Below, one piece after another: positions 47,784 through 64,000 of a stretch of DNA of 64,000 bases. The DNA lies in assembly GCA_937952395.1 (NCBI GenBank), contig CALFYV010000090.1:97408-161407 (forward strand), in the 5' to 3' direction. A program made the position numbers and the translations under genes. The notes under the pieces are model-generated. The model worked only from the letters and a program-made list of their open reading frames with translations. It was not told the DNA's origin and did not search any database. The stretch is from an uncultured Bacteriovoracaceae bacterium. Lineage in GTDB: Bacteria; Bdellovibrionota; Bacteriovoracia; Bacteriovoracales; Bacteriovoracaceae. Positions within the stretch are counted from its first letter, which is position 1. Each line of letters opens with the position of its first letter.

Positions 47784-49382
47784 ATGTCAAATGATTTTCT
47801 GCATGGCAGTTCTTTGTTGCTAGGCGACAATACCGTTCCCGGCGTGCAAATTCCGGAAGAACTTAAGAAGTTAATTCCTGATATTTTCAAAGCCTGTAAG
47901 GATTTCGGTTTGGATTTTTATCCGACTGTTGTTCAAATGTTGGCTTATGATGAAATTAGTGAAATTGCTTCTTATGGTGGTTTTCCGGTTCGTTATCCCC
48001 ATTGGAAATGGGGTATGGAATATGAGGAATTGCAGAAGGGTTATATGTACGGAATGCACCGTATATATGAATTAGTTATCAATACTAATCCATGCTACAT
48101 TTATTGTTTAGATTCCAATGCTCTTGTAGATAATGTTACTGTTATTGCTCATGCTTTAGGACACAATGATTTCTTTAAGAATAATATTTTCTTCTCCCCT
48201 ACCAGTCAAAATATGATGAACCAATTGGCCAATCACGGCACAAGGGTTCGTAAATACATGGCTCGCTGGGGAAGGAGTAGAGTTACAGATTTCATTGATC
48301 ACTGTTTAAGAATTGAAACCCTTATTGATTTCAGCACAGCATGGGAAAAGAGAAAGGTAAAGCAAGTCACGATCAAAGATAGTAGAAAATATCGTCATCC
48401 AAGACGGTTGGAAACAGATCGTGATTACATGGAACCTTACATCAACACTGAAGAGTGGAAAAACAAACAAAAACAAAAAATTGAAAGAAAAGATGCTTTT
48501 GATGAATTAGAGATTTTCAATAATCCCACCAAGAATATTATGGGATTTTTGCGTGATCATGCTCCGCTCAAAGCGTGGCAGTCAGATGTTTTGTCTATGT
48601 TATATCAAGAGGCTTTGTATTTTGCACCTCAAAGATTGACAAAAATGGCCAATGAAGGCTGGGCCAGTTTTGTTGATTACAACATTATGTGCAAATATGC
48701 TCTGTGCGGATTAGGTCAAAAAACTCCTGATTCTGGAATTATTCAATATTCCAAACACAAGATGGGTGTTTTAGGCGGCAAACATTCGACTAATCCATAT
48801 AAATTAGGTTTTTGTTTATTCCAAGATATTGAAGAGCGTTGGAATAAGGGCCGTTTTGGTACAGAATATGAAGAGTGTGATGATTTAGAGAAGAAGAGAA
48901 AATGGGATACAAATGTTGGGTTGGGACAAGAAAAGGTTTTTGAAGTTCGCAAGCATTATAATGATTTAACGATGCTGGCTGAATTCTTTACTCCTGAATT
49001 TTGCAATAAATATGAGTTTTTTAACTGGAAACGCCATCCAAATGGTGATATCATGTTAGAGAATCGCAATTTCAGGGAAATTAAAACTAAATTACTCCGC
49101 AAATATGCGAATGGCGGCCTGCCAGAGATTTTCTTAGTTGATCCAAATCATCGTGGTAAAAGATATATGCTTCTCCAACATCGTTGGGAGGGTCAAACAT
49201 TACTTCCAAAATATGTAGAAGCTGTAATGCAATCATTGTATTTCTTCTGGAACAATGATGTGTATCTTGCCACTAAAGACAAGGATGGAAATGAGATTGT
49301 TTGGGCTGCCTATGGTGTCGAAGATGGGCTTGTAGAATGCATGACACGGGAAAAATACGAAGAGTCAATGAAACGAAAATGA
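47784..49382 (+). CDS. spoVR: SpoVR/YcgB-family protein
   Basis: IAHALGHNDFFKNN and the length (532 aa) fit SpoVR. The start directly abuts the yeaH stop. Confidence 0.88.
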   Translation: MSNDFLHGSSLLLGDNTVPGVQIPEELKKLIPDIFKACKDFGLDFYPTVVQMLAYDEISEIASYGGFPVRYPHWKWGMEYEELQKGYMYGMHRIYELVINTNPCYIYCLDSNALVDNVTVIAHALGHNDFFKNNIFFSPTSQNMMNQLANHGTRVRKYMARWGRSRVTDFIDHCLRIETLIDFSTAWEKRKVKQVTIKDSRKYRHPRRLETDRDYMEPYINTEEWKNKQKQKIERKDAFDELEIFNNPTKNIMGFLRDHAPLKAWQSDVLSMLYQEALYFAPQRLTKMANEGWASFVDYNIMCKYALCGLGQKTPDSGIIQYSKHKMGVLGGKHSTNPYKLGFCLFQDIEERWNKGRFGTEYEECDDLEKKRKWDTNVGLGQEKVFEVRKHYNDLTMLAEFFTPEFCNKYEFFNWKRHPNGDIMLENRNFREIKTKLLRKYANGGLPEIFLVDPNHRGKRYMLLQHRWEGQTLLPKYVEAVMQSLYFFWNNDVYLATKDKDGNEIVWAAYGVEDGLVECMTREKYEESMKRK

Positions 49383-49812: not shown

Positions 49813-50505
49813 ATGCCCACAAAGAAAAAGACGGAGTTAGATCAATTAATAAATGATATTCATTGTCACCATATAAATTATCACACCCGAGATATTTATC
49901 TTCATAGTTCTGGCTATGAGGATGGAGATTCTGAGAGGGGTGTGGAATTTAAAATGGCGACAACTTTTGTAAAGAATTTACATATTTTATTAAACCAAAA
50001 TGCAACTCTGCCCATTCTGGTGCATATGCATAGCATTGGTGGTGTTTGGAATGATGGAATGGCGATGTTCAATGCTATTCGATATTCTACGGCACCAATA
50101 ACTATTTTAGCTTATGCACAAGCCAGTTCTATGACAGGCATTTTGCTGCAAGCCGCCGACAGGCGAATTGTTACTCCTGACTGTGAATTTATGTTACATC
50201 ACGGTTCAGTGTCATTGGAGGACAATTCAATAGCTGTTAGATCGGCAGTGGAAACTAATGAAAGATATTGCCGTCGAATGTTAGAAATATTTGCAAGACG
50301 AGCAAAAAATGCTCAATTCTTTAAGGAAAGAAAATATAGTGAAAGTAAAATTAAAAGCTATATCGACCGAAAAATTAAAGACAAAAGTGACTGGTATTTA
50401 GATGCTGAGGAGGCATTGTACTATGGTTTTGTTGATGAAATACTTGACAAACAAATAGATTTCGATCAGTTGCGAACTGTAACTAAATATAAAGGTAAAA
50501 TATGA
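49813..50505 (+). CDS. ClpP-family serine protease
   Basis: AQASSMTG (Ser) and MLHHGS (His) align with ClpP QAASMG / MIHQP. Confidence 0.72.
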   Translation: MPTKKKTELDQLINDIHCHHINYHTRDIYLHSSGYEDGDSERGVEFKMATTFVKNLHILLNQNATLPILVHMHSIGGVWNDGMAMFNAIRYSTAPITILAYAQASSMTGILLQAADRRIVTPDCEFMLHHGSVSLEDNSIAVRSAVETNERYCRRMLEIFARRAKNAQFFKERKYSESKIKSYIDRKIKDKSDWYLDAEEALYYGFVDEILDKQIDFDQLRTVTKYKGKI

Positions 50506-51197
50506 CAATTGATAATCTACACCATGAACATTTTCATAAACGACTGAATACTTCTGATAATTATACAAATGCTTTAATGCAACTTTTAAAAAAGAAAAAA
50601 CATTTTAAAAGTTTCAGAAAAGCCACTAGAGAAGAAGACTTAGCAGGGATTGATTGGTGGGTTGTTTTTCCTGATGAAGATGAGGAATCTCCTATTCAAT
50701 TTAAACTAAGAGATAAAATGAAAGATATGCCATTAGTTAGATATCAGCCGTTTAGAGGAACCGATGATGAAACTACGGTGGAAGGTCGAGATTGGCGTGG
50801 ATTACATGACAATGCTTCTAAATACTATTATGTGGCCATTAGAAATGGCACTGGATTTTGTCAAGCATATCGAATTACATCTAAGAAATTAAAAAAAATA
50901 GCTCGGAAGCTTGATAAAGAATGGAGTCAATCTGAAAAAGCTTTTGAAACCTTTCCGGTAGGATTTTTTGATTCAAAGCGAGTTCAAATGTGGTTGAAGA
51001 AAGGCATTTGGAACAAGTGTGTTTTCCGCACAGATGATGGAGAAATTTGGTGGAAGAAAAATAGAAATGAAGGGTTTCCCAAGTTTAACATGTATATTCC
51101 CTATGACTACAAAGAATGGGAATGTAATTTTGATAGTAAAGATAGTGAATTTATAAAAAACAAAGTAAGCGAGGCTGATGCCTTAAGGAGTTCGTAA
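50502..51197 (+). CDS. Hypothetical protein
   Basis: 231-aa coupled ORF. Confidence 0.55.
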   Translation: MTIDNLHHEHFHKRLNTSDNYTNALMQLLKKKKHFKSFRKATREEDLAGIDWWVVFPDEDEESPIQFKLRDKMKDMPLVRYQPFRGTDDETTVEGRDWRGLHDNASKYYYVAIRNGTGFCQAYRITSKKLKKIARKLDKEWSQSEKAFETFPVGFFDSKRVQMWLKKGIWNKCVFRTDDGEIWWKKNRNEGFPKFNMYIPYDYKEWECNFDSKDSEFIKNKVSEADALRSS

Positions 51198-51415
51198 TGT
51201 CCGATGTAGAGTTATTTTTGACAGATGAGTTTGTTTCTTTTGCAAAAAAAATTTCTGAAGTTTTAGATAAAAAGAAAGCTAAAGAAGCTGAGATGAAGCA
51301 GCTTTATAGTCAATTTAAAGATGATCTAAAAGAATTAGAAGCCGAGGCTGCCGTACTTTATCAGGAATGGGAAAATTTTAAAGCTGGCAGATCGTCTGGT
51401 GAAGTTTCAGAATAG
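51197..51415 (+). CDS. Hypothetical coiled-coil protein
   Basis: 72-aa ORF. Confidence 0.5.
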   Translation: MSDVELFLTDEFVSFAKKISEVLDKKKAKEAEMKQLYSQFKDDLKELEAEAAVLYQEWENFKAGRSSGEVSE

Positions 51416-51419
51416 TCTA

Positions 51420-51448
51420 TTGACATTTATTAGCAGTTAAGTTAAATA
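51420..51448 (+). promoter_or_regulatory. Sigma70-like promoter candidate
   Basis: TTGACA, 17-nt spacer, TAAATA. Preceded by AGTCTAT as at 18357. The ATG at 51455 sits about 7 nt after the -10, which would make the transcript leaderless. Confidence 0.45.
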
Positions 51449-51454
51449 TAATTC

Positions 51455-52885
51455 ATGGTTGACATTATTTCAAAAAATGGAGGTAAAAAGGTGGAGATTG
51501 TCGGTTTCGAACATCTCCACCTTTAGCTACACACAGATTTTAGTTTACTAGATGGCTATGCCATGGTGGAGGAACATGCTAAAAGAGCAACTGAAATTAA
51601 TCAAAGATTTCTGTGTGTAACTGATCATGGTGCTATGGGCGCCATACCTCGTCAAATTCGTGCTTGTGAAGAAAATAAAATAAGCCCTATTTTCGGCTGC
51701 GAGCTATACATAAATCCCATACAACCCGAATTCAACACTGAAACCGAGCGACTTCAATTCATTAAAAATATCGATCCTGATATTAAAGCTCAGTTTCGTA
51801 AATCATATCATCTTTTAGCTATAGCTTATAATAATACTGGCTATAGCAATCTTGTTAAGCTTTCTTCATGGGGTTGGACCAAGGGCTTTTATTATCGTCC
51901 TCGGGTTAATCATGAGCAGTTGATGAAATATAAAGAAGGAATTGTTTTTTCATCATGTTGTTATAACGGAGAAATTGGACAAGCTTTTGATAAAGGTGGC
52001 GAAGAAGCTGGCGAGGCGATGTTGGTGAAATATATGAAAATGTTTCACCCACATTTTTATCTTGAGTTTATATTGTTGGATTTTGATAAACAAAAGCCTT
52101 ATAACGCATTTATCATGAAAATGCATGATAAATATGGAATCCCTCTCATCATTAGTCAGGACTGCCATTATACTTATAAAGATGATAGTCACATGCAGAG
52201 TTTGATGTTAATGGTTCAAACTGGCAAGACCATCCAAGATATTCAAAAAGCAAAAGAAGCAGATGAAACCGCCGACTTTTTTGAATTACAGGATAAAAAT
52301 CTTTGGATGAAGTCTGAAGAAGAAATAGATGAAAAGTGGGAATCTGATTATCAACATATTGTTGATTATGAGTTGTTAAAAGAAGCTAAAAGAAATACTG
52401 TTAGAATTTGTGAGTTAGCTCAAGGTGTTGAATTAGACAGATCAATGAAATTGCCTCGTTTTGACGATGCCAACGATAAATTAAAAGAATATACTATGCA
52501 AGGCTTCGCTCAGCGTGGATTGCCAAAAAATAAAGAGTATCATAATCGGATTTTGGAAGAATTATCACTGATTATTCAAAAAGACTTCTCGTCTTATTTC
52601 CTCATACAGAAAATGATGACAGATGAGGCTAGACGAAAGTGTCCAGAATTGTTAGGATGGGGGGACGGGTCTGAAGCTTGCGGTCCAGGTCGAGGTAGTG
52701 TTGGCGGAAGTTTGGTTGCTTATTGTTTAGGCATTACTGATGTTGATCCTATAAAACACGATTTGTTGTTTTCTAGATTTTTAAGTCCAGCCCGTGGCGG
52801 TAAATCAGTTAAGTTAAAGTTTGCCTCTGACCCTATTTCTCAAATAGAACAAGTTGTAAACGCAACAGAGGAATGTCCTTTTTAA
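51455..52885 (+). CDS. dnaE: DnaE (Pol III alpha) N-terminal piece: PHP domain and pre-catalytic palm, with an in-frame TAG at 51524-51526
   Basis: The track ORF starts at 51563, but the same frame upstream reads MVDIISKNGGKKVEIVGFEHLHL-TAG-LHTDFSLLDGYA, which is the first PHP motif. Downstream come GPGRGSVGGSLVAYCLGITDVDP and LLFSRFLSPARGG. The ORF ends about 30 aa later, before the PDxDxDF catalytic motif. Confidence 0.7.
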
Positions 52886-53391
52886 TGATAAAGAAGATTA
52901 AAGTTACGTCTAAATCGCAGGCTAAGGCATTTATTTCTGATGTTCCTTGGGCTGCGATTAGTATTACCACATATAAGGATGACTGGCCGAAATTAAATGG
53001 AACCAAACGGTTAGGTTTATTACAGCTTTGGTTTGCAGATGTGGAATTGGAATACTATTCACTGGCAGATGAAATTTTGTTTAAGCCTGAGCATGCTAAA
53101 CAAATTTATGATTTTGTGAAATCTATGCATGAAAAAAATGATGTTGAATTACTTTTGGTGCATTGTGAGGCTGGTTATTCAAGATCACCTGCTATTGCCT
53201 GTGTATTAGAACAGGCTTTTCTTGGTTTGGAGTCTAAGCTATTTCCGGCAAAATATTTTAATTCTTTTGAAGGCGGTTATTTGAAATATGAACCAAATAA
53301 ACTGGTTCATAAAATAATGATCCAAGAAGGTATACGTTTGGGTCATTTGAAATATTCAGATGAGTTTCAACCATTTGTGACTCCAGAATGA
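52873..53391 (+). CDS. Cys-based (PTP/dual-specificity-type) phosphatase
   Basis: HCEAGYSRS matches the HCx5R(S/T) signature. Confidence 0.7.
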   Translation: MSFLMIKKIKVTSKSQAKAFISDVPWAAISITTYKDDWPKLNGTKRLGLLQLWFADVELEYYSLADEILFKPEHAKQIYDFVKSMHEKNDVELLLVHCEAGYSRSPAIACVLEQAFLGLESKLFPAKYFNSFEGGYLKYEPNKLVHKIMIQEGIRLGHLKYSDEFQPFVTPE

Positions 53392-53558
53392 AATGGCGAA
53401 AAAGATATGCTTGGGCTCTTAGATTGCAACTAGCATTTGTTTTGTTGCCATTAATATTTGCTTTTACTTATCCTCAACTGCTGTTTGCTTGTTGGGCAGC
53501 AGCATTAGTGTTTGTATTATGCGGTGTGTTTTTTCATTTCTTCTCAATATATGCCTAA
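53388..53558 (+). CDS. 56-aa two-TM membrane peptide (below the ORF-track cutoff)
   Basis: ATGA-coupled. Sequence is MKWRKRYAWALRLQLAFVLLPLIFAFTYPQLLFACWAAALVFVLCGVFFHFFSIYA. Confidence 0.4.
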   Translation: MKWRKRYAWALRLQLAFVLLPLIFAFTYPQLLFACWAAALVFVLCGVFFHFFSIYA

Positions 53559-54578
53559 TTAATTCAAGCCCATTTTAGACATAGAGTTCATTAAATTGCT
53601 AGGCTTTCTAGTTGGTTTGGCGAATTTAGATGGTGGACCCATTTCCATATCAGAATCTTCGTCTTCTATTTCATCACCCATCTCATCATCCATGTCGCCA
53701 CTTAGGTCGTCATCGCCTTCATCGTCGAAGTCCATGTCATCATCATCCATGTCATCGCCTTCGTCATTAAATTCTTCATCGCCCATCTCATCATCCATGT
53801 CCATTTCTTCATCTCCCATTTCGCCATCCATGTCCTCTGGAGATTCTTCGTCTTCCTCAGGTTCCATTTTTAATCCCATTGGAGGACCAACAGCTTCTTT
53901 TAGGGCACGAGCAAATCTGCGAGATCGTCTTTCACCATCTTCATTTTCTTCTTCGAATAAATTGGTGAGTTCACTATAAGCTTCTGGATATTCTAAAGCA
54001 GCTTTGAATACTTCGCCTAGAATATTTGCTCTTTTTAATTCGTGCATGAGTTGTTCAACAACTTTTGGACTTTTCTTGCTTAACGCAGCAACGTATCTAA
54101 TTGCTTCTGAAGGATGTGGATGAAACGCTCCTGGCTTAGTTGCGTTAACCATCGGCAAATCTTCTGTTAATTCGATTGTGCCACATTCTTTAACCATGAA
54201 TTCAGCGAATTCTTTGGTAGACATGTTTTTTGTTTTATTAAAGAACTGCTCAGTTTTTGGCAATCCTTTTGGCCATTCATCTTTAATTTCAGTGCCGAGC
54301 GATGTTAATTTAGAATTGCCGCCTTTTGTGTCAGGCGTATACTCTAAATTCTTATCTCCCATATCTGCAAAACCACCAGTTTCAGCTTTTTTTGCGGAAG
54401 CATTTTTATTTGCAGCTTTGTAGGGATTTAAATCGCCTTGGCCTTCGCCTTTTGTTGGTTTTTTAGGGTCTGGACCTTCATAATCGGCAACCAATTTAAC
54501 TTTTGGGTTTCCAGCAAGACCAGTGGCGTTTACGCCGTCTTTTCTTTCTTCGACGTAATTTGTGAATTTTTTAAACAT
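53559..54578 (-). CDS. Protein with FTNYVE leader and an extremely acidic C-terminal region
   Basis: N-terminus is MFKKFTNYVEER. The C-terminal ~100 aa are dominated by D/E/M/G (EEMDMDDEMGDEEFNDEGDDMDDDDMDFDDEGDDD). Confidence 0.65.
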   Translation of the reverse strand: MFKKFTNYVEERKDGVNATGLAGNPKVKLVADYEGPDPKKPTKGEGQGDLNPYKAANKNASAKKAETGGFADMGDKNLEYTPDTKGGNSKLTSLGTEIKDEWPKGLPKTEQFFNKTKNMSTKEFAEFMVKECGTIELTEDLPMVNATKPGAFHPHPSEAIRYVAALSKKSPKVVEQLMHELKRANILGEVFKAALEYPEAYSELTNLFEEENEDGERRSRRFARALKEAVGPPMGLKMEPEEDEESPEDMDGEMGDEEMDMDDEMGDEEFNDEGDDMDDDDMDFDDEGDDDLSGDMDDEMGDEIEDEDSDMEMGPPSKFAKPTRKPSNLMNSMSKMGLN

Positions 54579-54590
54579 GTTTCTCCAAAA

Positions 54591-54761
54591 TTATTTCATA
54601 AGTAGAGCTAGCACAATATAAACTACTAAGCCTGGAACAAAGCCAGTACTTAATGTGACTATGGCATATAACACTCGTATTAAAAGCGAATCAACTCCTA
54701 GTGTGTCAGCGATTCCCGAACATACACCAAGAAGCACTTTATCTTCTGTATTTTTCTTCAT
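54591..54761 (-). CDS. PspC-domain membrane protein
   Basis: Internal start MKKNTEDKVLLGVCSGIADTLGVDSLLIRVLYAIV matches the PspC domain. AAGGA upstream. Confidence 0.6.
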   Translation of the reverse strand: MKKNTEDKVLLGVCSGIADTLGVDSLLIRVLYAIVTLSTGFVPGLVVYIVLALLMK

Positions 54762-54873
54762 TGTAAATCCTTTTGTTATGGCATTTCGCCACAAATTTTG
54801 AAGGCTAGTATATTTAGGGGTAAGCCTCCAAAATTTATTGAGTAGGATTCTACATAATTTTGGCGAATGCGAC

Positions 54874-54901
54874 TTTACAAATCGCCTTTTGTGTGTATAA
54901 T
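54874..54901 (+). promoter_or_regulatory. Sigma70-like promoter upstream of the tmRNA
   Basis: TTTACA, 16-nt spacer, TATAAT. Lies about 150 nt upstream of the mature tmRNA 5' end. Confidence 0.5.
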
Positions 54902-55054
54902 GAAAGAGCACGACGGGGCTATTATCCTGCCCCAGAGCGCCCTATTCTTTTTAAGAAGGTGTCGCCTGGATTGTCGGGATTATTTGGGCTGCCATCGTGT
55001 CTCTCGGTATGGTTTAGACTGATGGACCCAGCCGAGTTGAAAAATCAGTCTCAC

Positions 55055-55403
55055 GGGGTCGTTAGGTTTCGATTCGCAATGAGGTTGAATGTGTGGCATG
55101 CAGTGGTTGATCGAACGGCCACTTTAAAAATCGATCAAGCCTTAACCGGCAATACTTACGCTCAGGCTGCTTAATCAGCCAAGGGTTTTGGGAAGCTAAG
55201 TTAGCTGCGTCCTTAAATCCTAACGAAATGCTAACTGGCTTTAACCCTTGCAGATACAGGTTGAAGTGAGATAAAATGATTCTGCTGGCTCTAAATAACT
55301 TTTGCTATTTGCAGTTTTTAGAGTAAGATTTAGCAAAAAGATAAGCATGTAGAGGCCGCTCGACTAGTTGTAGAAGATGGGGGTTCGATTCCCCCCGACT
55401 CCA
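55055..55403 (+). ncRNA. ssrA: tmRNA (one-piece), CCA not encoded
   Basis: - The 5' GGGGTCG pairs with the 3' CGACTCC, including the G3:U wobble, and is followed by discriminator A.
- T-arm is GGGGG-TTCGATT-CCCCC.
- The conserved TAAGCATGTAG block is present.
- The 5' GGTTTCGATTCGC resembles E. coli GGAUUCGACGGG.
- The tag frame ends ...GGC AAT ACT TAC GCT CAG GCT GCT TAA (GNTYAQAA) at 55174. Confidence 0.88.
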
Positions 55404-55406
55404 CTT

Positions 55407-55459
55407 AACTCATTTACTTCCGTAAATGAGTTCCGTCACCGGCCCTTCGGGGCTCGGTG
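55407..55459 (+). other. Two stable hairpins immediately 3' of the tmRNA
   Basis: AACTCATTTA / TAAATGAGTT (10 bp) and CACCGGCCC-TTCG-GGGCT(C)GGTG (UUCG tetraloop). Confidence 0.6.
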
Positions 55460-55510
55460 TCGTTGTTATAGTTTCCTATGGACCTGACCGGCAATCCGGC
55501 CACGCCCAAA

Positions 55511-55547
55511 ATACCCTGTGGCTTAAATGTCATAGGGTATTTTTTTT
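55511..55547 (+). terminator. Rho-independent terminator
   Basis: ATACCCT...AGGGTAT stem followed by T7. Confidence 0.65.
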
Positions 55548-55587
55548 GACAATTGATTTATTTCAAAAATTGGGTATAATCATTGAT

Positions 55588-56418
55588 ATGAGTAGAGATA
55601 TTTTTAGGTCATATTATCGAGATGTAATTAAACCGCTTGAATCAAGCAATCCTGAAATCATTGGCTATACAGGCAAACACCCTATACTTTATAAAAAAAT
55701 AGGGAATGGTCCTCATCATGTTTTGATTTCAGGAGGCGTACACGGCGAAGAAATTGCAGGATGTGCTGCTGCGGTTGATATAATTGAAAATTTATTCACG
55801 GTTCCAGGGGGCCATTTTACTATTCATGTATATCCATGTATGAATCCGTACGGATATGAATATAATATACGTGAGAATGCTGAAGGTATTGATTTGAATC
55901 GAGGGTTCAAGGAAACACTTAAAGGCCGTGAAGTTGAAATTTTTGCTGAACATGTTAAAAAATTAAATTACAAATATATTTTTACCATGGATTTTCATGA
56001 AGGTTCTCCCAATACTATATGGAAAGTATTAGATAACAATAAAAAAATTAAATGTTCTTATTCTTTAGAAGACAATCCTCATGGTGCGTGGCTTTATGAA
56101 TCTTGTAAGGTTTTGTCTCATCGCATGGGCGATAAAATGTTGCAAGCATTGCGAAACGAAGGTCTAGAAGTAACTTCTAAAGATATTGTTTATGATGATA
56201 TTTGTGATAATGGTTGGATCAAATATCCCGAAGCAATGAAAAGTGAAGAATATGCTGAGGGGAATTCTTTTGATGCATGGCTTTGGGCTCATTATACTTC
56301 TCAAGCGTTTACATCCGAAACGGATATGTCTTGGCCGCTCGAAGATAGAATTAAAGCACATCATTTGATGCTTATGGCTGCGCTCGAAGCCACAAGAACA
56401 AGGTTGGATAATGTCTAA
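55588..56418 (+). CDS. Zinc carboxypeptidase-like (M14 / AstE-AspA family) protein
   Basis: GGVHGEEIAG (HxxE zinc motif). Start moved to 55588 because the track's upstream 54 codons read through the hairpins. TTGATT, 16-nt spacer, TATAAT lies at 55553-55580, just upstream (possibly leaderless). Confidence 0.6.
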   Translation: MSRDIFRSYYRDVIKPLESSNPEIIGYTGKHPILYKKIGNGPHHVLISGGVHGEEIAGCAAAVDIIENLFTVPGGHFTIHVYPCMNPYGYEYNIRENAEGIDLNRGFKETLKGREVEIFAEHVKKLNYKYIFTMDFHEGSPNTIWKVLDNNKKIKCSYSLEDNPHGAWLYESCKVLSHRMGDKMLQALRNEGLEVTSKDIVYDDICDNGWIKYPEAMKSEEYAEGNSFDAWLWAHYTSQAFTSETDMSWPLEDRIKAHHLMLMAALEATRTRLDNV

Positions 56419-58330
56419 ATATAATGCTTCTCAAATTTCTGTTCTCAAGGGATTAGAGGCAGTTCGCAAAAATCCAGGTATGTATATTGGGAGCCTTTCT
56501 TCTCAAGGGCTTCACCATTTGCTATGGGAAATATTAGATAATTCCTGTGATGAGGCTATGGGAGGCTTCTGTACAGAGGTTTCAATTATAGTAGATAAAG
56601 ATGGTGAAACCATCACAGTAGAGGATAACGGGCGAGGCATCCCAGTTGATACCCACCCAATAGAAAAACGATCTGCTTTAGAAGTGGTTATGACCACACT
56701 CCATGCAGGCGGGAAATTTGAAGAAGCAGGTGGTTCTTATACATCATCGGGTGGTTTACATGGTGTTGGTGCCTCCTGTGTTAATGCTCTTTCCGATCAA
56801 ATGTATGTAGAAGTTTGTCGTGATGGCGTTGTATGGAAACAAACATACTCCGCTGGCAGAACCACAAGTAAAGTTAAAAAAGTTGGTAAATGTCGCAAAA
56901 CAAAAACAGGAACTAAAAGTTCTTGGCATCCTGATAAAAATATATTCAAAAATGTTAAAGTCGATGATAACTTGATTGTTCGTCGCATTAGAGAAATGGC
57001 ATTTTTGAATCGTGGATTAAAAATAAACTATAAAAATATTGCCACAAAATTCGAAGAGTCTTTTTGTTTTGATGGCGGAATCTCAGATTATGTTAAGTAT
57101 CTTTGTGATGGGAAAGATGAAGTTTACCCATCACAGCCTTTATTTGGTGAAGGCAAATCTTCTTTGACTTCTCGTCCTGGAGACTGTGAGGTGCAAATTG
57201 CACTTGCCTATTCGGGAGAGGACGATGAAACTATTTTATCTTTTTGTAACAACATCAACACCGGGGATGGTGGCACGCACGTTACGGGATTTAAAAATGC
57301 CTACACGAGAGTCATTAATGTATTGGCTCGTCAACATGGGTTGTTGAAAGAAAGTGCCAACAATTTAAGCGGGGATGATGTTCGTGAAGGTTTAATGGCT
57401 GTAGTATCTGTCAGGTTTGCTCGTCCTGAATTTATTTCACAAACTAAATCAAAATTAGGAACTACTGAGATAGAATCAGTGGTTAGCACAATAGCCAGTC
57501 AATTGTTGTCTGGTTATTTTGATAAAAACTCTGGTGTTTTGAAAAAGATTGTTAATCGTGCTTTGGTTGCACAACAAGCAAGGGCTGCTGCAAAGAAGCA
57601 ATCAGACTTGGTAAAAAAGAAAGGGTTCCTCGGCAAAAATAATCGAATGCCCGGAAAACTTTACGATTGCGATTCAGAGAAGCGAGATTTACGAGAGCTA
57701 TTTATTGTGGAAGGTGATTCGGCGGGTGGCTCAGGAAAGGATGGTCGTGATCCCGAAACTCAGGCAATTCTTCCAATTCGTGGTAAAATCATCAATGCTG
57801 AAAAGAATGACATATCAACCCTGTTGAAAAACAAAGAAGTTCAATCTTTAATTATTGCAATTGGCACTGGTATTAAAGATGACTTTGATTTTAAGAAATT
57901 AAGATATAACAAAGTCATAGTTATGTGTGATGCCGATGAGGATGGCAACCATATTGCCACTTTGTTGTTGACTTTCTTCTATCGCTACATGCGACCGCTC
58001 GTTGCAGATGGATATATTTATCTGGCACAGCCGCCATTGTTTTGTGTTGACAACGGAAAGAGAAAAGTATATTGTTGGTCTGAAGCTGAGATGCAATCTC
58101 AGGTCAAAAAACTTGGTAAATGTAAAGTTGTCAGGTTTAAAGGGCTAGGTGAAATGGATGCAGAACAATTGGCTGAAACTACAATGCATCCCAATGGTCG
58201 CCGTTTAATTAGATTGCAAATAGACGATCAAGGTGAAACAGAGCATATGGTGTCTGTGCTGATGGGTAGCAATGCACAGTTAAGGAAGGAACATATTGTG
58301 AACCAAGTAAACAGTGTGGTAAAAAAATGA
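56411..58330 (+). CDS. Type IIA topoisomerase ATPase/Toprim subunit (GyrB/ParE-like)
   Basis: LEAVRKNPGMYIGS, GHKL ATPase motifs, EGDSAGG, PIRGKIIN, DADEDGNHI. Confidence 0.9.
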   Translation: MSKYNASQISVLKGLEAVRKNPGMYIGSLSSQGLHHLLWEILDNSCDEAMGGFCTEVSIIVDKDGETITVEDNGRGIPVDTHPIEKRSALEVVMTTLHAGGKFEEAGGSYTSSGGLHGVGASCVNALSDQMYVEVCRDGVVWKQTYSAGRTTSKVKKVGKCRKTKTGTKSSWHPDKNIFKNVKVDDNLIVRRIREMAFLNRGLKINYKNIATKFEESFCFDGGISDYVKYLCDGKDEVYPSQPLFGEGKSSLTSRPGDCEVQIALAYSGEDDETILSFCNNINTGDGGTHVTGFKNAYTRVINVLARQHGLLKESANNLSGDDVREGLMAVVSVRFARPEFISQTKSKLGTTEIESVVSTIASQLLSGYFDKNSGVLKKIVNRALVAQQARAAAKKQSDLVKKKGFLGKNNRMPGKLYDCDSEKRDLRELFIVEGDSAGGSGKDGRDPETQAILPIRGKIINAEKNDISTLLKNKEVQSLIIAIGTGIKDDFDFKKLRYNKVIVMCDADEDGNHIATLLLTFFYRYMRPLVADGYIYLAQPPLFCVDNGKRKVYCWSEAEMQSQVKKLGKCKVVRFKGLGEMDAEQLAETTMHPNGRRLIRLQIDDQGETEHMVSVLMGSNAQLRKEHIVNQVNSVVKK

Positions 58331-58641
58331 AAATAAAAGCAGAATTAGAATCAAATGATCTAAAAGATATTAGAGAAGTGTTAACAACATGGATGGGCAT
58401 ATCCCCTTCAGATGAACAAATTCGTGACTTAATGAAATATGAAAATGATATTCTTATCGATATTGCTAATTGGGGAGCAAATGATACCCCAACTAGAGAA
58501 AAAATAATGAAAGCCGTTGGAGAACGAATCACTAAAATGCGATATCCACGCCATAAAGATTCTCAGAAATATATGGATGAATTTTGGGACATTTTTAATC
58601 AAAAAGCTGTTGCCTCTGGGATAAAGGTGGTTGTATCATGA
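58327..58641 (+). CDS. Hypothetical protein
   Basis: 104-aa coupled ORF between the topoisomerase subunits. Confidence 0.5.
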   Translation: MKIKAELESNDLKDIREVLTTWMGISPSDEQIRDLMKYENDILIDIANWGANDTPTREKIMKAVGERITKMRYPRHKDSQKYMDEFWDIFNQKAVASGIKVVVS

Positions 58642-58826
58642 TTAGGAAAAATGAAATTTATGTTGATGAGTGGGATGGAAACCTTCAAATTAGTCTAAGT
58701 GATCTTGAGAAATTAATTCCAGAGTTGAAGAACAAGTATGGAGCTAAATCATTGCTTAGCTTCGATGCGGGCTACAACAATGTATCTGTAGTAATTGTGC
58801 CATCTAAGAAAAAGATTAAAAAATGA
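58638..58826 (+). CDS. Hypothetical protein
   Basis: 62-aa coupled ORF. Confidence 0.45.
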   Translation: MIRKNEIYVDEWDGNLQISLSDLEKLIPELKNKYGAKSLLSFDAGYNNVSVVIVPSKKKIKK

Positions 58827-59047
58827 AAGATGCATTCGATAATCCATTAAGCATAAAAGATACTGTTGTTTTCATCTATAAAAATAGATTTGTTATGGGT
58901 GAGATTGTCTCGTTTATTCCGGGAGTTGTCATCAATAAAAATAAACAATCTCTAGATCAAGTTGTAGTAGAGGTTGTTCAAAAATTAAAAAATAGTTACC
59001 CACCGGATCGCATAACACTCCAAACTTCTGCTGTTATAAAAAGATGA
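58823..59047 (+). CDS. Hypothetical protein
   Basis: 74-aa coupled ORF. Confidence 0.45.
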   Translation: MKDAFDNPLSIKDTVVFIYKNRFVMGEIVSFIPGVVINKNKQSLDQVVVEVVQKLKNSYPPDRITLQTSAVIKR

Positions 59048-61410
59048 ATAAAGAAAAATTTCTTTCTGAAGAAGAATTTTCTTCTGTATTAGATTCTAGA
59101 TTTACTCGATATGCTTTTATGTCGCTGGAAGATCGTGCCCTTCCAGATGCCCGAGATGGTTTAAAACCATCACAAAGACGGGTGTTGGTGGCAATGAATG
59201 ATCTTCATTTATCCTCTACCAGTGTTACAGAGAAGTCTGCCAAGATTTGTGGCGATACATCGGGCAACTATCATCCACACGGCGAAGCCGTAGTTTATCC
59301 TACGATGTATCGACTGGCGCAGCCTTGGGTAATGAGATATCCATTACTCATAGGACAGGGTAACTTTGGAAATGTAGATGGCGATCCACCGGCTGCGATG
59401 CGATACACTGAAGCAAAGCTTTCACAAATGGGTGAAGCAATGCTTCGTGATTTGTCTGAAGATGTTGTTGCTTATGAATCAAATTATAATGAAAAAAGAA
59501 AAGAACCGACAATACTTCCGGCTTTCTTTCCAAATTTATTGGCCAATGGTTGCGAAGGCATTGCTGTTGGCTGGGCAACTAAAATGTTGCCTCACAACAT
59601 AAAAGAACTCGCAGCAATAGTAAAGAAATATATTTCCAACCCCAACACCAGAATATCAAGCTATTTGAAATTAATGCCAGGTCCGGATTTTCCTACTGGC
59701 GGGAAAATCTTAGGTCAACAAGGTGTGTTGGATTACTATACTAGTGGCCGAGGAACCATTAAGGTAGAAGGCACATATGCAATTGATAAAAAATCAATTG
59801 TAGTAACAGAACTGCCTTATCAATCTAGTCCTGATCAACTTTGCAATGAAATTAAAAATTTAGTTGAATCAGGTAAAATTGATGGTATTGTCGATTTAAA
59901 AAACCTGTCTTCCAAAAAAACAGGTATAAATGTTGTAATTCAAACTGGTAAAGGCAGTAATGTTCCTTTAATTTTGAATGGTTTGCTTAAACATACGTGT
60001 TTGAGAAAATCGATATCAGTTAATCAAACAGTTTTAATTGACGGAAAAGTTGTTCCTGAAGCTTCGCTCCCCCAGCTAATTAAAGCTTTTGTAGATCATC
60101 GTAAAGAGGTATTAGTAAACAAATATCAAGCTGAACTAAAATGTTCATTAGCTCGTGTTCACATCTTGGAAGGTTTGATTGGCATCGTTGATAAAATTGA
60201 TGCTGTAATTGAGTTGATTAGAAACAGCGATGATCCTGAGGATGCTGAGAAGAAGTTAATTTTTCGAAAGTTTGTAAAAACCTTAGAGCAAGCTAAAGCT
60301 GTGTTGTCTATTACTTTAAGACAATTAACCAAACTCGAAGGTAAAAAATTATTGGAAGAGCGTGATAAACTTAAAAAAAGAATCAAGTGGCTCAAGAAAG
60401 TAGTGGCCGACGAAAAGGAGATTCTCGCATTGATTGTACAAGAACAAAATGAAATTATCAAAGATTTTGGCGATGATCGTAAAACAGAAATGGTCGAAGA
60501 TGTAGAAGAGATTTCAGAGGAAGATTTAATCAAGGATGAAAATCTAACCATTACGCTGACTGGAAATGGTTATATTAAAGCCTTTCCTGCGGGCAAAACT
60601 CCCTCTCTAGAAGATGCATTTGTTGTTTTGAATACTAAAAGTAAAGATAGTGTTTTGTTTTTAACAAATACAGGTTTTGTATATCAAAGAATGGCTTATT
60701 TAATTCCTCAAGATTCAAGGATGAAAAAAGGCTTACATGTCAGCAGCTTGCTGGATTTGAAGGTAGATGAAAAAGTCGTTAGCATGTTCCTTTTAGAGGA
60801 AAAAAGCTTTGTATTAATTGTAACCAAAAATGGGGTTATCAAAAGAAGTGAATCACAAACATATGAAACTACTCGCACCAACGGTATAGGTGGAATTAAT
60901 TTGAATAAAGGTGATGAAGTAGTTTTTGCTGGAATAACTGATGGAAAGAAAGACATTTTCATTGTAACAAAACACGGCTATCTTGTTAGATATTCAGAAG
61001 AAATAGTTCCCGTTCAAGGCAGATTAACCAAAGGTAGTCGAGCATTAAAAATGGATTATGAAGATGATGTAGCAGCAGTTTTTACTCTTGACCCAAAAGA
61101 TATATCTGATATCCTAGTAATTACTGAGAATGGATTTGGCAAACGTAATAGTAATAAAGATTACAAATGTTCTAATAATCGCCAAATTAGAGGCTCTTCT
61201 ATAGTTAGCAAAACATCCTTGAGAAAAACTGGTGATGTTGTTGGGGCTTGTTTAATTGATAAAAATGATATTTTGATTCTTACTGATATTGGTATATTTA
61301 GGATCGGTCCAAGTAGCATTAGGCAGACAACTAGAAATGCTAACGGGCGACTTTTGGTTAAATTGGAATCTGGGCAAGTAGTCACAAAAATAGCACAAGC
61401 ATATGGTTAA
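59044..61410 (+). CDS. Type IIA topoisomerase breakage-reunion subunit (GyrA/ParC-like)
   Basis: DGLKPSQRRVL, HPHGEAVVY, AAMRYTEAKL (catalytic Tyr). C-terminal repeated beta-pinwheel-like segments. Confidence 0.9.
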   Translation: MNKEKFLSEEEFSSVLDSRFTRYAFMSLEDRALPDARDGLKPSQRRVLVAMNDLHLSSTSVTEKSAKICGDTSGNYHPHGEAVVYPTMYRLAQPWVMRYPLLIGQGNFGNVDGDPPAAMRYTEAKLSQMGEAMLRDLSEDVVAYESNYNEKRKEPTILPAFFPNLLANGCEGIAVGWATKMLPHNIKELAAIVKKYISNPNTRISSYLKLMPGPDFPTGGKILGQQGVLDYYTSGRGTIKVEGTYAIDKKSIVVTELPYQSSPDQLCNEIKNLVESGKIDGIVDLKNLSSKKTGINVVIQTGKGSNVPLILNGLLKHTCLRKSISVNQTVLIDGKVVPEASLPQLIKAFVDHRKEVLVNKYQAELKCSLARVHILEGLIGIVDKIDAVIELIRNSDDPEDAEKKLIFRKFVKTLEQAKAVLSITLRQLTKLEGKKLLEERDKLKKRIKWLKKVVADEKEILALIVQEQNEIIKDFGDDRKTEMVEDVEEISEEDLIKDENLTITLTGNGYIKAFPAGKTPSLEDAFVVLNTKSKDSVLFLTNTGFVYQRMAYLIPQDSRMKKGLHVSSLLDLKVDEKVVSMFLLEEKSFVLIVTKNGVIKRSESQTYETTRTNGIGGINLNKGDEVVFAGITDGKKDIFIVTKHGYLVRYSEEIVPVQGRLTKGSRALKMDYEDDVAAVFTLDPKDISDILVITENGFGKRNSNKDYKCSNNRQIRGSSIVSKTSLRKTGDVVGACLIDKNDILILTDIGIFRIGPSSIRQTTRNANGRLLVKLESGQVVTKIAQAYG

Positions 61411-62386
61411 TCTTGACGATTTAGAATTAAATGATATTTTGAGCCGCTCGGGTCGGCCTGCTGTTCACGTTCGCCGGCGTCGAAATGATCAAGGAGAAGT
61501 TTTGAGTAACGAGTCATCATCTCACTATCAATGGACATCTTCTGACGGGGATAAATTTTTTCCTGCTGGTCGTCCATATAACACATTGCCACCCGGTTTA
61601 TGGGAGCCTAAATATTGCCATAGTCGAGGTTATTTTTGCGAGAAACTTAAATGTAATACAAATGATCTCTTAGAGTTTCCTGAAACACATTGTGAACGTG
61701 TTGTTAAAGAAATTAGAAAATTTTGGGATCGTGAAGAACGTTTTCGTAAAAACAATCTTGTGTATAAACGTGGAATCATATTATGGGGTCCACCTGGCTC
61801 TGGTAAAAGCAGCACGATAAAACTTGTATTAAAGGATGTGTTTGAAAGAAATGGAGTTGCAATGAAGTTCGATCAACCTCCAATGTTTTTAGAGGTTGTT
61901 AGAATTTTCAGAAAAATAGAACCCAATACTCCTCTTGTTGTTTTGATGGAAGACATTGATGCAATTATTGAGGAATGGGGTGAAACAGATGTTCTTAATA
62001 TTTTAGATGGTGTCGAAGTATTAGACAAAGTTGTATATTTAGCAACAACCAATTATCCAGAAAAACTTGGCGAGAGAATCATTAATCGTCCAAGTCGATT
62101 TGATCGTAGATTCAAAATGCCACATCCTGGCAGGAAATCTCGTCGCCTTTATTTTGAACACTTGTTAAAAACAAATGAATATCAAATTGATATAGACAAG
62201 TGGGTAAAAGACACCGAGGGAATGTCAATTTCCCATCTTAAAGAGTTATTTATTGCTGTTTGTATTTTAGAAGATGATTATAAAAGCGTAATTAAAACAT
62301 TGCAAACAATGGTAGAAGAGACTGTTTCTTCTAATGAAGATGGCAATAATCTCGGTTTCGCCCAATTTAAAAACGAGGAAGATTGA
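61403..62386 (+). CDS. AAA+ ATPase
   Basis: Walker A GPPGSGKSS, Walker B VVLMEDID, TTNYPEKL, sensor/Arg-finger RPSRFDRR. Confidence 0.8.
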   Translation: MVNLDDLELNDILSRSGRPAVHVRRRRNDQGEVLSNESSSHYQWTSSDGDKFFPAGRPYNTLPPGLWEPKYCHSRGYFCEKLKCNTNDLLEFPETHCERVVKEIRKFWDREERFRKNNLVYKRGIILWGPPGSGKSSTIKLVLKDVFERNGVAMKFDQPPMFLEVVRIFRKIEPNTPLVVLMEDIDAIIEEWGETDVLNILDGVEVLDKVVYLATTNYPEKLGERIINRPSRFDRRFKMPHPGRKSRRLYFEHLLKTNEYQIDIDKWVKDTEGMSISHLKELFIAVCILEDDYKSVIKTLQTMVEETVSSNEDGNNLGFAQFKNEED

Positions 62387-63537: not shown

Positions 63538-64000
63538 ATGTTAGATGATGTAAGAAATAAAATAATCAAACTATGCCGCACAAGGCAAAAAGAGCTTGGC
63601 TTAGATGACGAAGTTCATAATAATCGTCTGCTCTTAGAAATAAAAGAAATAGACACACAAATTGCCCATGAATATTTCTACGATCTTTATGAGAAACAAG
63701 CCAAGTTTGCTTATAATGAAAATAATCTTTTAGTGGCATATCTTCTTGGTTTGACTGATGATTTTGACATCAATTCAGACCCGACATATATCCAGGGCGA
63801 CATGCCGGATATTGATTCTGACTTTAATCCCATTGTTCGTGACTATCTGAAAAATGAATGGGCTATCAAACAATTTGGCGAAGACAAAGTTTGTGCCATT
63901 GGTAATTACACAACTTTTGGCATTAAATCTTCTTTGATTGATATGGCTCGTGTCCACGGCAAAGATCGTGGAGAAATTCTTAAATTAACCACCAAATTAG
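63538..64000 (+). CDS. dnaE: DnaE (Pol III alpha) polymerase-core piece, 5' partial (continues beyond the window end)
   Basis: Hand translation from the ATG at 63538. NNLLVAYLLGLTDDFD is a degenerate copy of the SLVAYxLGITD block. Then come the catalytic-Asp motif MPDIDSDF and EDKVCAIGNYTTFGIKSSLIDMARV. Not in the ORF track because no stop lies in the window. Confidence 0.75.
   Translation, partial: MLDDVRNKIIKLCRTRQKELGLDDEVHNNRLLLEIKEIDTQIAHEYFYDLYEKQAKFAYNENNLLVAYLLGLTDDFDINSDPTYIQGDMPDIDSDFNPIVRDYLKNEWAIKQFGEDKVCAIGNYTTFGIKSSLIDMARVHGKDRGEILKLTTKL

What the first reader, a model, noticed from the sequence alone, without database searches (positions are those of the whole stretch)
51455..51565. 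In-frame TAG inside the first PHP-domain motif of dnaE
- **Upstream frame:** the ORF track starts this gene at 51563, but the same frame upstream is open from the ATG at 51455. It reads MVDIISKNGGKKVEIVGFEHLHL-TAG-LHTDFSLLDGYAMVEEH.
- **Alignment:** without gaps to the DnaE N-terminal signature (E. coli FVHLRVHSDYSMIDG), the TAG (51524-51526) falls on the variable residue between the metal-binding histidines. This is Arg in E. coli.
- **Possible origin:** CAG (Gln) is one transition away from TAG.
- **Start codons:** neither ATG has a Shine-Dalgarno sequence. The ATG at 51455 sits about 7 nt after a TTGACA-17-TAAATA promoter, which would give a leaderless start.
- **Options:** programmed amber readthrough or a suppressor tRNA encoded elsewhere; a recent nonsense mutation; or translation from 51563 giving a PHP domain without its first His pair.
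Basis: seen in the sequence. Interest (0 to 1): 0.65.

Follow-up and report, generated by a model that had tools for sequence, protein, structure and literature searches.

The report
Six-base coding gap in phage dnaE
The in-frame TAG is real, but it is half of a conserved six-base insert (TAG CTA) in a huge phage's DNA polymerase gene, which the ribosome most likely hops over, and this would be the first natural "stop-hop" on record.

Summary
The TAG at 51524-51526 is real. It is identical in three assemblies and is kept in a relative with only 74% nucleotide identity. It is not a mutated sense codon. Against 65 unique intact relatives (GFEHLHLHTDFSLLDG), the window carries a six-base insert: CAC CTT [TAG CTA] CAC. 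Skipping six bases restores the consensus exactly.

Across 168 related loci, the same PHP motif is interrupted in 46 unique sequences. The gaps are 5-9 nt, or 40-56 nt with hairpins, and three lineages carry group I introns there. Removing any short gap gives the 16-residue consensus. All five Leu-type cases read CUY-stop-CUN.

Interrupted genes remain under purifying selection. They carry a covarying 5' stem-loop, and an HNH-like endonuclease gene lies just upstream far more often than in intact genes (16/42 versus 2/65).

Best reading: programmed translational bypassing. Peptidyl-tRNA-Leu hops from CUU over UAG to CUA. The arrangement parallels T4 gene 60 and MobA. All evidence is computational, and no junction peptide has been seen. 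I found no prior report in the literature I could search.

The parts
51197..51415 (+). Conserved 72-aa upstream neighbour gene. In relatives the endonuclease gene sits between this gene and dnaE-N; in the window it is absent.
   Evidence: 41-45% identity to the homologues in L149, L041 and L052. No endonuclease homologue anywhere in the window.
51479..51484 (+). Shine-Dalgarno sequence GGAGGT, 6 nt upstream of GTG 51491.
   Evidence: Sequence. L005 has GGAGGC, then 7 nt, then ATG at the same place.
51491..51493 (+). Probable start codon GTG of dnaE-N, giving MEIVGFEHLHL...
   Evidence: Relatives start MEIVGF or MKVEIVGF. The ATG at 51455 remains a possible alternative (P0009 starts MIDIIS...).
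51491..51520 (+). 5' stem-loop GUGGAGAU..AUCUCCAC: an 8-bp stem at 51491-98 / 51513-20, plus an inner 3-bp stem. It ends directly 5' of the take-off codon.
   Evidence: Fold -23.3 kcal/mol for 51491-51580. Present in 28 of 31 unique short-gap genes, mean dG -9.9 versus -3.9 kcal/mol in 70 intact genes. 100% paired in 22 distinct sequences, with 2 covarying pairs.
51521..51523 (+). Take-off codon CUU (Leu).
   Evidence: CUY is the take-off codon in all five Leu-type gaps.
51524..51529 (+). 6-nt coding gap: UAG (51524-26) plus the landing codon CUA (51527-29).
   Evidence: It is an insertion relative to 65 unique intact relatives, and removing it restores GFEHLHLHTDFSLLDG. L005 keeps CTT TAG CTT.
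51530..52885 (+). Rest of dnaE-N: the remainder of the PHP domain, the first ~100 residues of the DNA_pol3_alpha domain, and a conserved tail ending ECPF.
   Evidence: Pfam PF02811 at 7.8e-37 and PF07733 at 8.8e-27. The hop product aligns without gaps to Taq and M. tuberculosis DnaE from the HLHxHT motif on.
63538..64000 (+). Start of the separate dnaE C-terminal gene. It carries the PDIDSDF catalytic motif and runs off the end of the window.
   Evidence: tblastn of the intact relative's DnaE and translation.

Best explanation
**What it is.** The gene is the N-terminal half of a split DnaE from a ~546-kb phage. It probably starts at GTG 51491. After codon 11 it is interrupted by a 6-nt coding gap.

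**Proposed mechanism.** With CUU (51521-23) in the ribosomal P site and UAG (51524-26) in the A site, peptidyl-tRNA-Leu unpairs. The mRNA slides 6 nt and the tRNA re-pairs with CUA (51527-29). Decoding resumes at CAC 51530. Nine nucleotides therefore specify one leucine. The product, MEIVGFEHLHLHTDFSLLDG..., has the intact HxH metal-binding motif. An 8-bp stem-loop ending right before the take-off codon may help drive the mRNA forward as it refolds behind the ribosome.

**Likely origin.** The gap belongs to a family of inserts at this motif. In relatives these come with a free-standing HNH-like endonuclease gene just upstream of dnaE-N. The insert probably breaks that enzyme's target site and so protects the gene from cleavage, as in T4 gene 60 and MobA. 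In the window the endonuclease gene is gone and only the gap remains.

**Shown:** the insertion, its conservation, purifying selection on both sides, the covarying stem, and the endonuclease association.

**Inferred:** the hop itself, its efficiency, the role of the stem, and the immunity function.
For: 1. **Insertion, not substitution.** 65 unique intact relatives read GFEHLHLH[TS]DFS.LDG with no indel here. The window has CAC CTT TAG CTA CAC.
2. **Consensus restored.** Removing the gap restores the 16-residue consensus in the window and in all 34 unique short-gap relatives. Their gaps are 5-9 nt and always start with a stop codon right after the take-off codon.
3. **Matched Leu codons.** All five Leu-type gaps have CUN on both sides of the stop. 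Two are at this site (window, L005). Three are at a second site four codons on (L014, L015, L026: CTY TAA CTN).
4. **His-type gaps.** The triplet before the resume codon is NAY in 13 of 17 distinct gap strings, against about 1/8 expected. It is a perfect CAC or CAT in L155, L149 and L093. This fits re-pairing of tRNA-His and has no protein-level rationale.
5. **Conservation.** L005 is 81% identical at protein level and 74% at nucleotide level. It differs at 176 synonymous-only versus 84 non-synonymous codons downstream, and it keeps CTT TAG CTT and 10 of 11 upstream residues. Gapped genes compared with intact sisters give, for example, 160 synonymous versus 20 non-synonymous differences.
6. 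**RNA structure.** The 5' stem-loop is specific to short-gap genes and covaries. The site-2 hops have a take-off hairpin built from synonymous codon choices that are absent from the intact sister L116.
7. **Mobile-element context.** An endonuclease gene (PHROG HNH endonuclease, 1e-14 to 1e-17) lies upstream in 16 of 42 interrupted versus 2 of 65 intact unique loci, p=3e-6. Group I introns sit in the same motif in L038, L072 and L081. Gapped genes are scattered among intact ones in the tree.
8. **TAG is an ordinary stop elsewhere in the window.** Seven of 89 ORFs end in TAG, and the one at 33205 is followed by an RBS and an ATG.
[quoted passage not shown] The 2016 review states that no natural case is known (PMC5009743).
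Against: - There is no protein, ribosome-profiling or transcript evidence; everything is comparative.
- Synthetic stop-hops are described as low-level (bioRxiv 10.1101/2024.12.09.627546), and a replicative polymerase subunit may need more than that.
[quoted passage not shown] Whether one tRNA-Leu pairs with both depends on an unknown host or phage tRNA set.
- The region around the TAG itself has no significant take-off hairpin (51510-51560: -5.2 kcal/mol, z -0.55).
- Part of the stem-loop similarity between distant genes could come from co-conversion of flanks during cassette spread rather than selection. Five of its 8 pairs never vary.
- Four His-type gap strings lack a matching landing triplet.
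- Only 64 kb of a ~546-kb genome was searched for tRNAs, so a CUA-anticodon suppressor is not excluded.
Confidence: 0.62

Rival explanations
1. Stop-codon readthrough. UAG is decoded by a near-cognate tRNA or by a phage-encoded suppressor tRNA, giving HLHL-X-L-HTDFS with two extra residues.
For: The gap is in frame, so readthrough would give a full-length protein. Huge phages often carry tRNAs, and some recode TAG (my own knowledge). Only 64 kb of about 546 kb was scanned for tRNAs.
Against: None of the 65 unique intact sequences has extra residues between the invariant histidines. The homologous 5-, 7- and 8-nt gaps, and the hairpin gaps containing stops, cannot be rescued by readthrough, yet they share the stop-after-take-off design and the 5' stem. 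TAG is used as a normal stop in this window. The matched Leu codons in 5 of 5 cases would be unexplained.
Confidence: 0.15
2. Disabled 5' end. The insert truly stops translation, and a truncated protein lacking PHP motif I is made from ATG 51563. Alternatively, the N fragment is a decaying pseudogene tolerated because a selfish endonuclease cassette spread it.
For: The ORF from 51563 is intact at 440 aa. The gene is already split. The gaps behave as selfish, mobile inserts.
Against: The upstream peptide is conserved, with variation concentrated at third codon positions, across 22 distinct sequences. No SD precedes 51563. Relatives such as L006 have no in-frame start until 45 residues later, yet keep both flanks intact. 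H22 and H24 are invariant in the family. Gaps always begin with a stop and always restore the consensus when removed, unlike random lesions. Synonymous changes far outnumber non-synonymous ones downstream.
Confidence: 0.12
3. Sequencing or assembly artefact, or a very recent mutation in one population.
For: The window is a metagenome assembly at about 11x coverage (record name).
Against: The sequence is identical in three assemblies from at least two runs. The same CTT TAG CTN occurs in a different sample, in a relative with 26% nucleotide divergence.
Confidence: 0.02
4. Removal at the RNA level, by editing or processing of the 6 nt before translation.
For: Group I introns occupy the same motif in some relatives, so RNA-level removal does occur at this site for large inserts.
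Against: No known mechanism excises 5-9 nt from bacterial or phage mRNA (my own knowledge). Rfam finds nothing here. The universal stop codon right after the take-off codon points to a ribosomal event.
Confidence: 0.04

Closest known systems
Synthetic 'stop-hops' in E. coli (Weiss, Dunn, Atkins and Gesteland 1987; reviewed in PMC5009743)
   Same: Matched codons flank a stop codon. Nine nucleotides specify one amino acid. Peptidyl-tRNA re-pairs 6 nt downstream, in frame.
   Different: Those were engineered constructs working at a low level without stimulators. This one is natural, conserved between diverged phages, lies in an essential-looking motif, and is accompanied by a conserved 5' stem-loop. 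The 2016 review says no natural occurrence is known.
Phage T4 gene 60 50-nt bypass with the MobA homing endonuclease cassette (Huang 1988; Bonocora 2011; Manning and Atkins 2022, bioRxiv 10.1101/2022.08.31.505936)
   Same: A coding gap in a phage replication gene. A stop codon directly follows the take-off codon. [quoted passage not shown] There is a 5' stem-loop. In relatives, a free-standing HNH-type endonuclease gene lies next to the gap. The distribution is patchy and looks mobile, with 'hit and run' loss of the endonuclease.
   Different: The host gene is DnaE (PHP motif I), not topoisomerase. The gap here is 6 nt, and 5-9 or 40-56 nt in relatives. The take-off codon is Leu or His, not Gly GGA. 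The nascent chain is only ~11-14 residues at take-off. There is no sequence similarity to the gene 60 cassette, and the endonuclease lies upstream of the gene. No experimental proof exists.
Streptomyces phage Hau3 terminase 10-nt UUA bypass (PMC10732093)
   Same: Short-distance bypass of a block of inserted nucleotides in a phage gene, with flanking structure proposed as a stimulator.
   Different: That case is triggered by a rare sense codon and is proposed to be regulatory. This one is triggered by a stop codon and is linked to an endonuclease cassette.
Magnusiomyces capitatus mitochondrial 'byps' (reviewed in PMC5009743)
   Same: Many short inserts are corrected during translation, and landing codons are sometimes matched at only two of three positions. 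The His-type gaps of relatives behave the same way.
   Different: That is a mitochondrial system in which an unused codon sits in the A site, with 81 sites across many genes. Here a single hot spot occurs in one phage gene.

Membership tests
Stop-hop (short in-frame translational bypass) | A stop codon flanked by matched (synonymous, same-box) codons, so that 9 nt can encode one residue | tested here: met
   CTT TAG CTA at 51521-51529. L005 has CTT TAG CTT. L014, L015 and L026 have CTY TAA CTN.
Stop-hop (short in-frame translational bypass) | The product lacks the residues of the gap, shown by a junction peptide | not testable with these tools
   Only indirect support: removing the gap restores the exact family consensus, and the result aligns without gaps to Taq and M. 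tuberculosis DnaE.
T4 gene 60-type programmed bypass | A stop (or hungry) codon immediately 3' of the take-off codon | tested here: met
   Holds in the window and in all 34 unique short-gap relatives.
T4 gene 60-type programmed bypass | A take-off stem-loop containing the take-off and stop codons | tested here: not met
   51510-51560 folds at -5.2 kcal/mol, z -0.55. Such a hairpin is present in the site-2 relatives L015 and L026 and in the long-gap relatives.
T4 gene 60-type programmed bypass | A 5' stem-loop upstream of the take-off site | tested here: met
   51491-51520, with covariation at 2 of 8 pairs.
T4 gene 60-type programmed bypass | A nascent-peptide stimulatory signal | not testable with these tools
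   The nascent chain is MEIVGFEHLHL. It is conserved, but it is also constrained as part of the enzyme.
T4 gene 60-type programmed bypass | Linkage to a free-standing homing endonuclease gene (a MobA-like cassette) | tested here: inconclusive
   Absent from the window. Present upstream in 16 of 42 interrupted versus 2 of 65 intact relatives. Nuclease activity and target are untested.
T4 gene 60-type programmed bypass | Sequence homology to the gene 60 cassette, inserted in a topoisomerase gene | tested here: not met
   The host gene is dnaE. The known family is restricted to topoisomerase genes.
Stop-codon reassignment (TAG as a sense codon, code 15) | TAG not used as a terminator, and many in-frame TAGs in genes | tested here: not met
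   Seven of 89 long ORFs end in TAG, and TAG is followed by normal gene starts. There is no tRNA in the window.
Pseudogene | Relaxed selection, with random lesions on both sides of the stop | tested here: not met
   176 synonymous versus 84 non-synonymous codon differences against L005, and no other lesion in 476 codons. Sister pairs give the same picture.

The most novel reading that the evidence does not exclude
Huge phages carry a second, independently evolved system of the gene 60 / MobA type. An HNH-like homing endonuclease targets the DNA that encodes PHP motif I of DnaE. Immunity inserts of 5-9 nt and 40-56 nt then have to be skipped by the ribosome. The window's CUU-UAG-CUA would be the first natural stop-hop. 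The family would also supply dozens of natural variants (Leu and His take-off codons, perfect and two-of-three landings, double gaps) for working out the rules of bypassing.
Probability: 0.55. Interest if true: 0.9.

Novelty: new variant of a known kind. Interest (0 to 1): 0.8.

Why it matters
- **Rarity.** Programmed bypassing is known from very few natural systems: T4 gene 60 and its topoisomerase homologues, one yeast mitochondrion, and a candidate in Streptomyces phages.
- **A natural test set.** The 2016 field review says no natural in-frame stop-hop is known. This gene family offers a minimal 6-nt case, together with a graded series of 5- to 56-nt gaps at one site. That makes the roles of codon matching, 5' structure and gap length directly testable.
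- **Evolutionary pattern.** It suggests that pairing a homing endonuclease with a bypassed immunity insert is a recurring strategy, not a T4 oddity.
- **Annotation.** Gene callers truncate these polymerase genes. The database proteins start at Met 51563 or later. Stop codons inside phage genes are also not always genetic-code changes.

Tried and rejected
- **Genome-wide TAG recoding:** rejected. ORF statistics under alternative stop sets, and inspection of the TAG-terminated ORFs, show ordinary stops.
- **Suppressor tRNA in the window:** none. ARAGORN finds only a tmRNA.
rejected by the family alignment.
- **+1 or +2 frameshift for the 7- and 8-nt gaps of relatives:** possible for some. It cannot explain the in-frame 6-nt gaps or the gaps that contain stops. 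It also gives no reason for the NAY bias of the last gap triplet.
- **Termination followed by reinitiation after the long hairpin gaps:** only some have a possible ATT. It is not a general explanation (my reading).
- **GCA-to-GCN hop across the hairpin loop in L075 and L087:** the frame fits there but fails in L162. Left open.
- **Homing endonuclease next to dnaE-N in the window:** not found by Pfam, PHROGs or tblastn.
- **More site-1 Leu-type examples:** pattern scans of IMG/VR and GTDB genomes gave only chance hits.
- **Pfam and PDB sequence searches of the endonuclease:** no significant hits. Only PHROGs recognises it.
- **Prior reports:** five literature searches found nothing on bypassing in DnaE or a PHP domain. 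The library is incomplete, so this does not prove novelty.

Full report
**1. The observation**

The window has 35.6% G+C and encodes ClpP, gyrase A and B, and a tmRNA. The closest public record is a 595-kb uncultured phage, and the window's own protein sits on a 546-kb contig.

TAG lies at 51524-51526, in frame with ORF 51563..52885. That ORF encodes a PHP domain plus the first ~100 residues of the DNA_pol3_alpha domain. The Pfam PHP match begins at profile position 1, upstream of the TAG.

The sequence is identical in three assemblies, so it is not an assembly accident.

**2. The TAG is part of an insertion, not a substitution**

A protein search found more than 1,100 relatives. Most are 450-480 aa and come from large phage contigs. 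Their N-termini read ...GFEHLHLHTDFSLLDGY.... The window reads GFEHLHL-*-L-HTDFSLLDGY, from the DNA CAC CTT TAG CTA CAC. That is two extra codons.

With the six bases removed, the protein aligns without gaps to Taq and M. tuberculosis DnaE from the HLHxHT motif onward. H22 and H24 are invariant in a 26-sequence family alignment.

**3. The start codon**

An in-frame GTG at 51491 is preceded by GGAGGT, 6 nt upstream. Relatives begin MEIVGF or MKVEIVGF. The relative L005 has GGAGGC, then 7 nt, then ATG at the same place. The statement that there is no Shine-Dalgarno sequence is therefore wrong. At the TAG the nascent chain would be only 11 residues long.

**4. Conservation**

L005 comes from a different sample. 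It is 81% identical in protein and 74% identical in DNA, and it has CAT CTT TAG CTT CAT. Downstream of the gap the two genes differ at 176 synonymous-only and 84 non-synonymous codons. Upstream, 10 of 11 residues are identical. A recent nonsense mutation or a decaying pseudogene does not fit these numbers.

**5. The site is a hot spot**

I collected 168 loci from IMG/VR, JGI metagenomes and assemblies. In each I measured the distance between the GFEHLH and LDG anchors.
- 65-67 unique sequences are intact. The count differs slightly.
- 46 unique sequences are interrupted.
- Short gaps of 5-9 nt account for 34 unique sequences.
- Every short gap begins with TAG, TGA or TAA immediately after a Leu (CTY) or His (CAY) codon.
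- Deleting any short gap yields exactly G[FY]EHLHLH[ST]D[FY]S.LDG.

Five gaps are of the Leu type, in frame and 6 nt long. They occur at two different codons of the motif:
- window: CTT TAG CTA
- L005: CTT TAG CTT
- L014: CTC TAA CTT
- L015: CTT TAA CTA
- L026: CTT TAA CTT

All five have a CUN codon on both sides of the stop.

For the His type, the last gap triplet is NAY in 13 of 17 distinct gap strings. It is a perfect CAC or CAT in three of them. That is what re-pairing of tRNA-His would favour. The residues Y, H, N and D share no protein-level property.

Other relatives carry 40-56-nt gaps with strong G+C hairpins. Some have two gaps in one motif (L131, L138, L154). Three lineages carry a group I intron at the same place, with Rfam scores of 75-102 bits.

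**6. RNA structure**

In the window, GUGGAGAU (51491-98) pairs with AUCUCCAC (51513-20), ending directly before the take-off CUU.
- The stem is present in 28 of 31 unique short-gap genes. Mean folding energy is -9.9 kcal/mol, against -3.9 kcal/mol in 70 intact genes.
- It is 100% paired in 22 distinct sequences, with two covarying pairs. L005 changes G-C to A-U at the closing pair.
- The site-2 hops (L015, L026) instead have a hairpin around the take-off site. It is made by synonymous codon choices that the 95%-identical intact sister L116 lacks.

One caveat applies. Gapped genes are scattered through the tree next to near-identical intact sisters. Some of the similarity in their 5' regions may therefore be co-converted cassette sequence rather than independently selected structure.

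**7. Link to an endonuclease**

Near-identical pairs of gapped and intact loci differ by about 1 kb just upstream of dnaE-N. That DNA encodes a 269-333-aa protein with a WH(I/V)DHIFP...NLxP...EN motif.
- PHROGs calls it an HNH endonuclease (1e-14 to 1e-17) and endonuclease VII.
- Pfam and PDB sequence searches do not recognise it.
- The gene, or a remnant of it, lies directly upstream of dnaE-N in 16 of 42 unique interrupted loci, against 2 of 65 intact ones (Fisher p = 3e-6).
- A further case turned up in L173.

This mirrors T4 gene 60 and MobA, where the bypassed insert and a homing endonuclease form one mobile cassette (Manning and Atkins 2022).

The window has no such gene. Its upstream neighbour is the conserved 72-aa gene that flanks the endonuclease in relatives. 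The window therefore looks like a 'hit and run' remnant.

**8. Are the gapped genes alive?**

Comparisons with intact sisters show far more synonymous than non-synonymous differences: 25 versus 6, 93 versus 15, 99 versus 12, 160 versus 20, and 187 versus 39.

**9. Alternatives**

TAG is an ordinary terminator elsewhere in the window, and the 64 kb contains no tRNA. Readthrough cannot be excluded for this in-frame case taken alone. However, it would put two residues inside an invariant motif. It also cannot serve the homologous out-of-frame gaps.

Starting at 51563 ignores the conserved upstream peptide. It has no SD, and in relatives such as L006 it is impossible.

**10. Comparison with the literature**

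[quoted passage not shown] The 2016 review states that no natural case is known (PMC5009743). The known homologues of gene 60 are all in topoisomerase genes. Five searches found no report of bypassing in DnaE. The library is incomplete, so novelty is provisional.

**11. Verdict**

It is a conserved 6-nt coding gap, most likely decoded by a Leu-to-Leu hop over UAG. It belongs to a previously undescribed family of endonuclease-linked gaps in the DnaE genes of huge phages.

My confidence that this is a selected recoding element, rather than an error or pseudogene, is about 0.85. My confidence that the mechanism is a hop is about 0.6. All evidence is computational.

Noticed in passing
window 51491-52885 and 63538-64000: dnaE is split into two genes about 10.6 kb apart. 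The N part ends just before the catalytic PDxDxDF motif, with a conserved tail (...GGKSxKLxF..DPI...ECPF). The C part repeats about 100 residues of the N part (LLVAYLLGLTDD...). Residues 406-433 of the intact relative hit both parts. A few relatives (P0036, P0066) carry an intein domain (PF14890) after the same point.
   Followed up: partly
window 55055-55406 (+): A phage-encoded tmRNA (Rfam RF00023, 111.5 bits; ARAGORN tag peptide GNTYAQAA*) lies between the two dnaE halves.
   Followed up: no
window 52873-62386: The DNA between the dnaE halves encodes a phosphatase-like protein (weak DSPc match), a 339-aa protein of unknown function on the minus strand, an M14-like carboxypeptidase or AstE-like protein, GyrB, GyrA and an AAA-type ATPase. 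ClpP (49813-50505) and a SpoVR-like gene (47784-49382) lie upstream.
   Followed up: no
L006 2845-2915; L075 ~1560-1620; L050, L057, L059, L087, L162, L145: Gaps of 40-47 nt with strong G+C hairpins lie after HTD or after SLL. They are followed by a purine- or A-rich tract, and some carry a stop in the hairpin loop. Lengths are 40, 41, 42, 44, 46 and 47 nt, so no single frameshift explains them. Take-off and landing triplets match at only two of three positions (GAY to AAC or GAA).
   Followed up: partly
L131, L138, L154 (about 1500-1620): Two separate gaps occur in one motif: an 8-nt His-type gap, then a 46-48-nt hairpin gap after S-L-L that begins CTC plus a stop. L138 is 99.4% identical downstream to the intact L106.
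   Followed up: partly
L038 1297-1522; L072 1225-1487; L081 1269-1496: ORF-less group I introns (RF00028, 75-102 bits) are inserted between ...HTDFS and xLDG of the same motif. L081 also has the endonuclease gene upstream.
   Followed up: partly
L026 507-1508; L149 695-1504; L052 607-1434; L173 2-685: A family of 227-333-aa proteins has repeated Cys-rich modules and a C-terminal WH(I/V)DHIFP..NLxP..EN motif. They sit directly upstream of dnaE-N. PHROGs labels them HNH endonuclease and endonuclease VII, while Pfam finds nothing. Remnants of the C-terminus persist in L014, L015, L044 and L154.
   Followed up: partly
L070 about 1500-1550: A dnaE-N gene with the endonuclease gene upstream has one T too few in the GAT TTT TCT run (gap -1). 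This is either a sequencing error in a T-run or a site that needs a frameshift.
   Followed up: no
L071, L079: These are the only two intact genes with the endonuclease gene upstream. Both have altered motif sequences (HLHCHSHYS and HLHLHSDRS), which may represent target-site escape by substitution rather than by insertion.
   Followed up: no
window 51447-51452: A perfect TATAAT lies 21 nt after TTGACA (51420-25). If it is the -10 element, transcription would start after ATG 51455, which favours GTG 51491 as the start codon.
   Followed up: no
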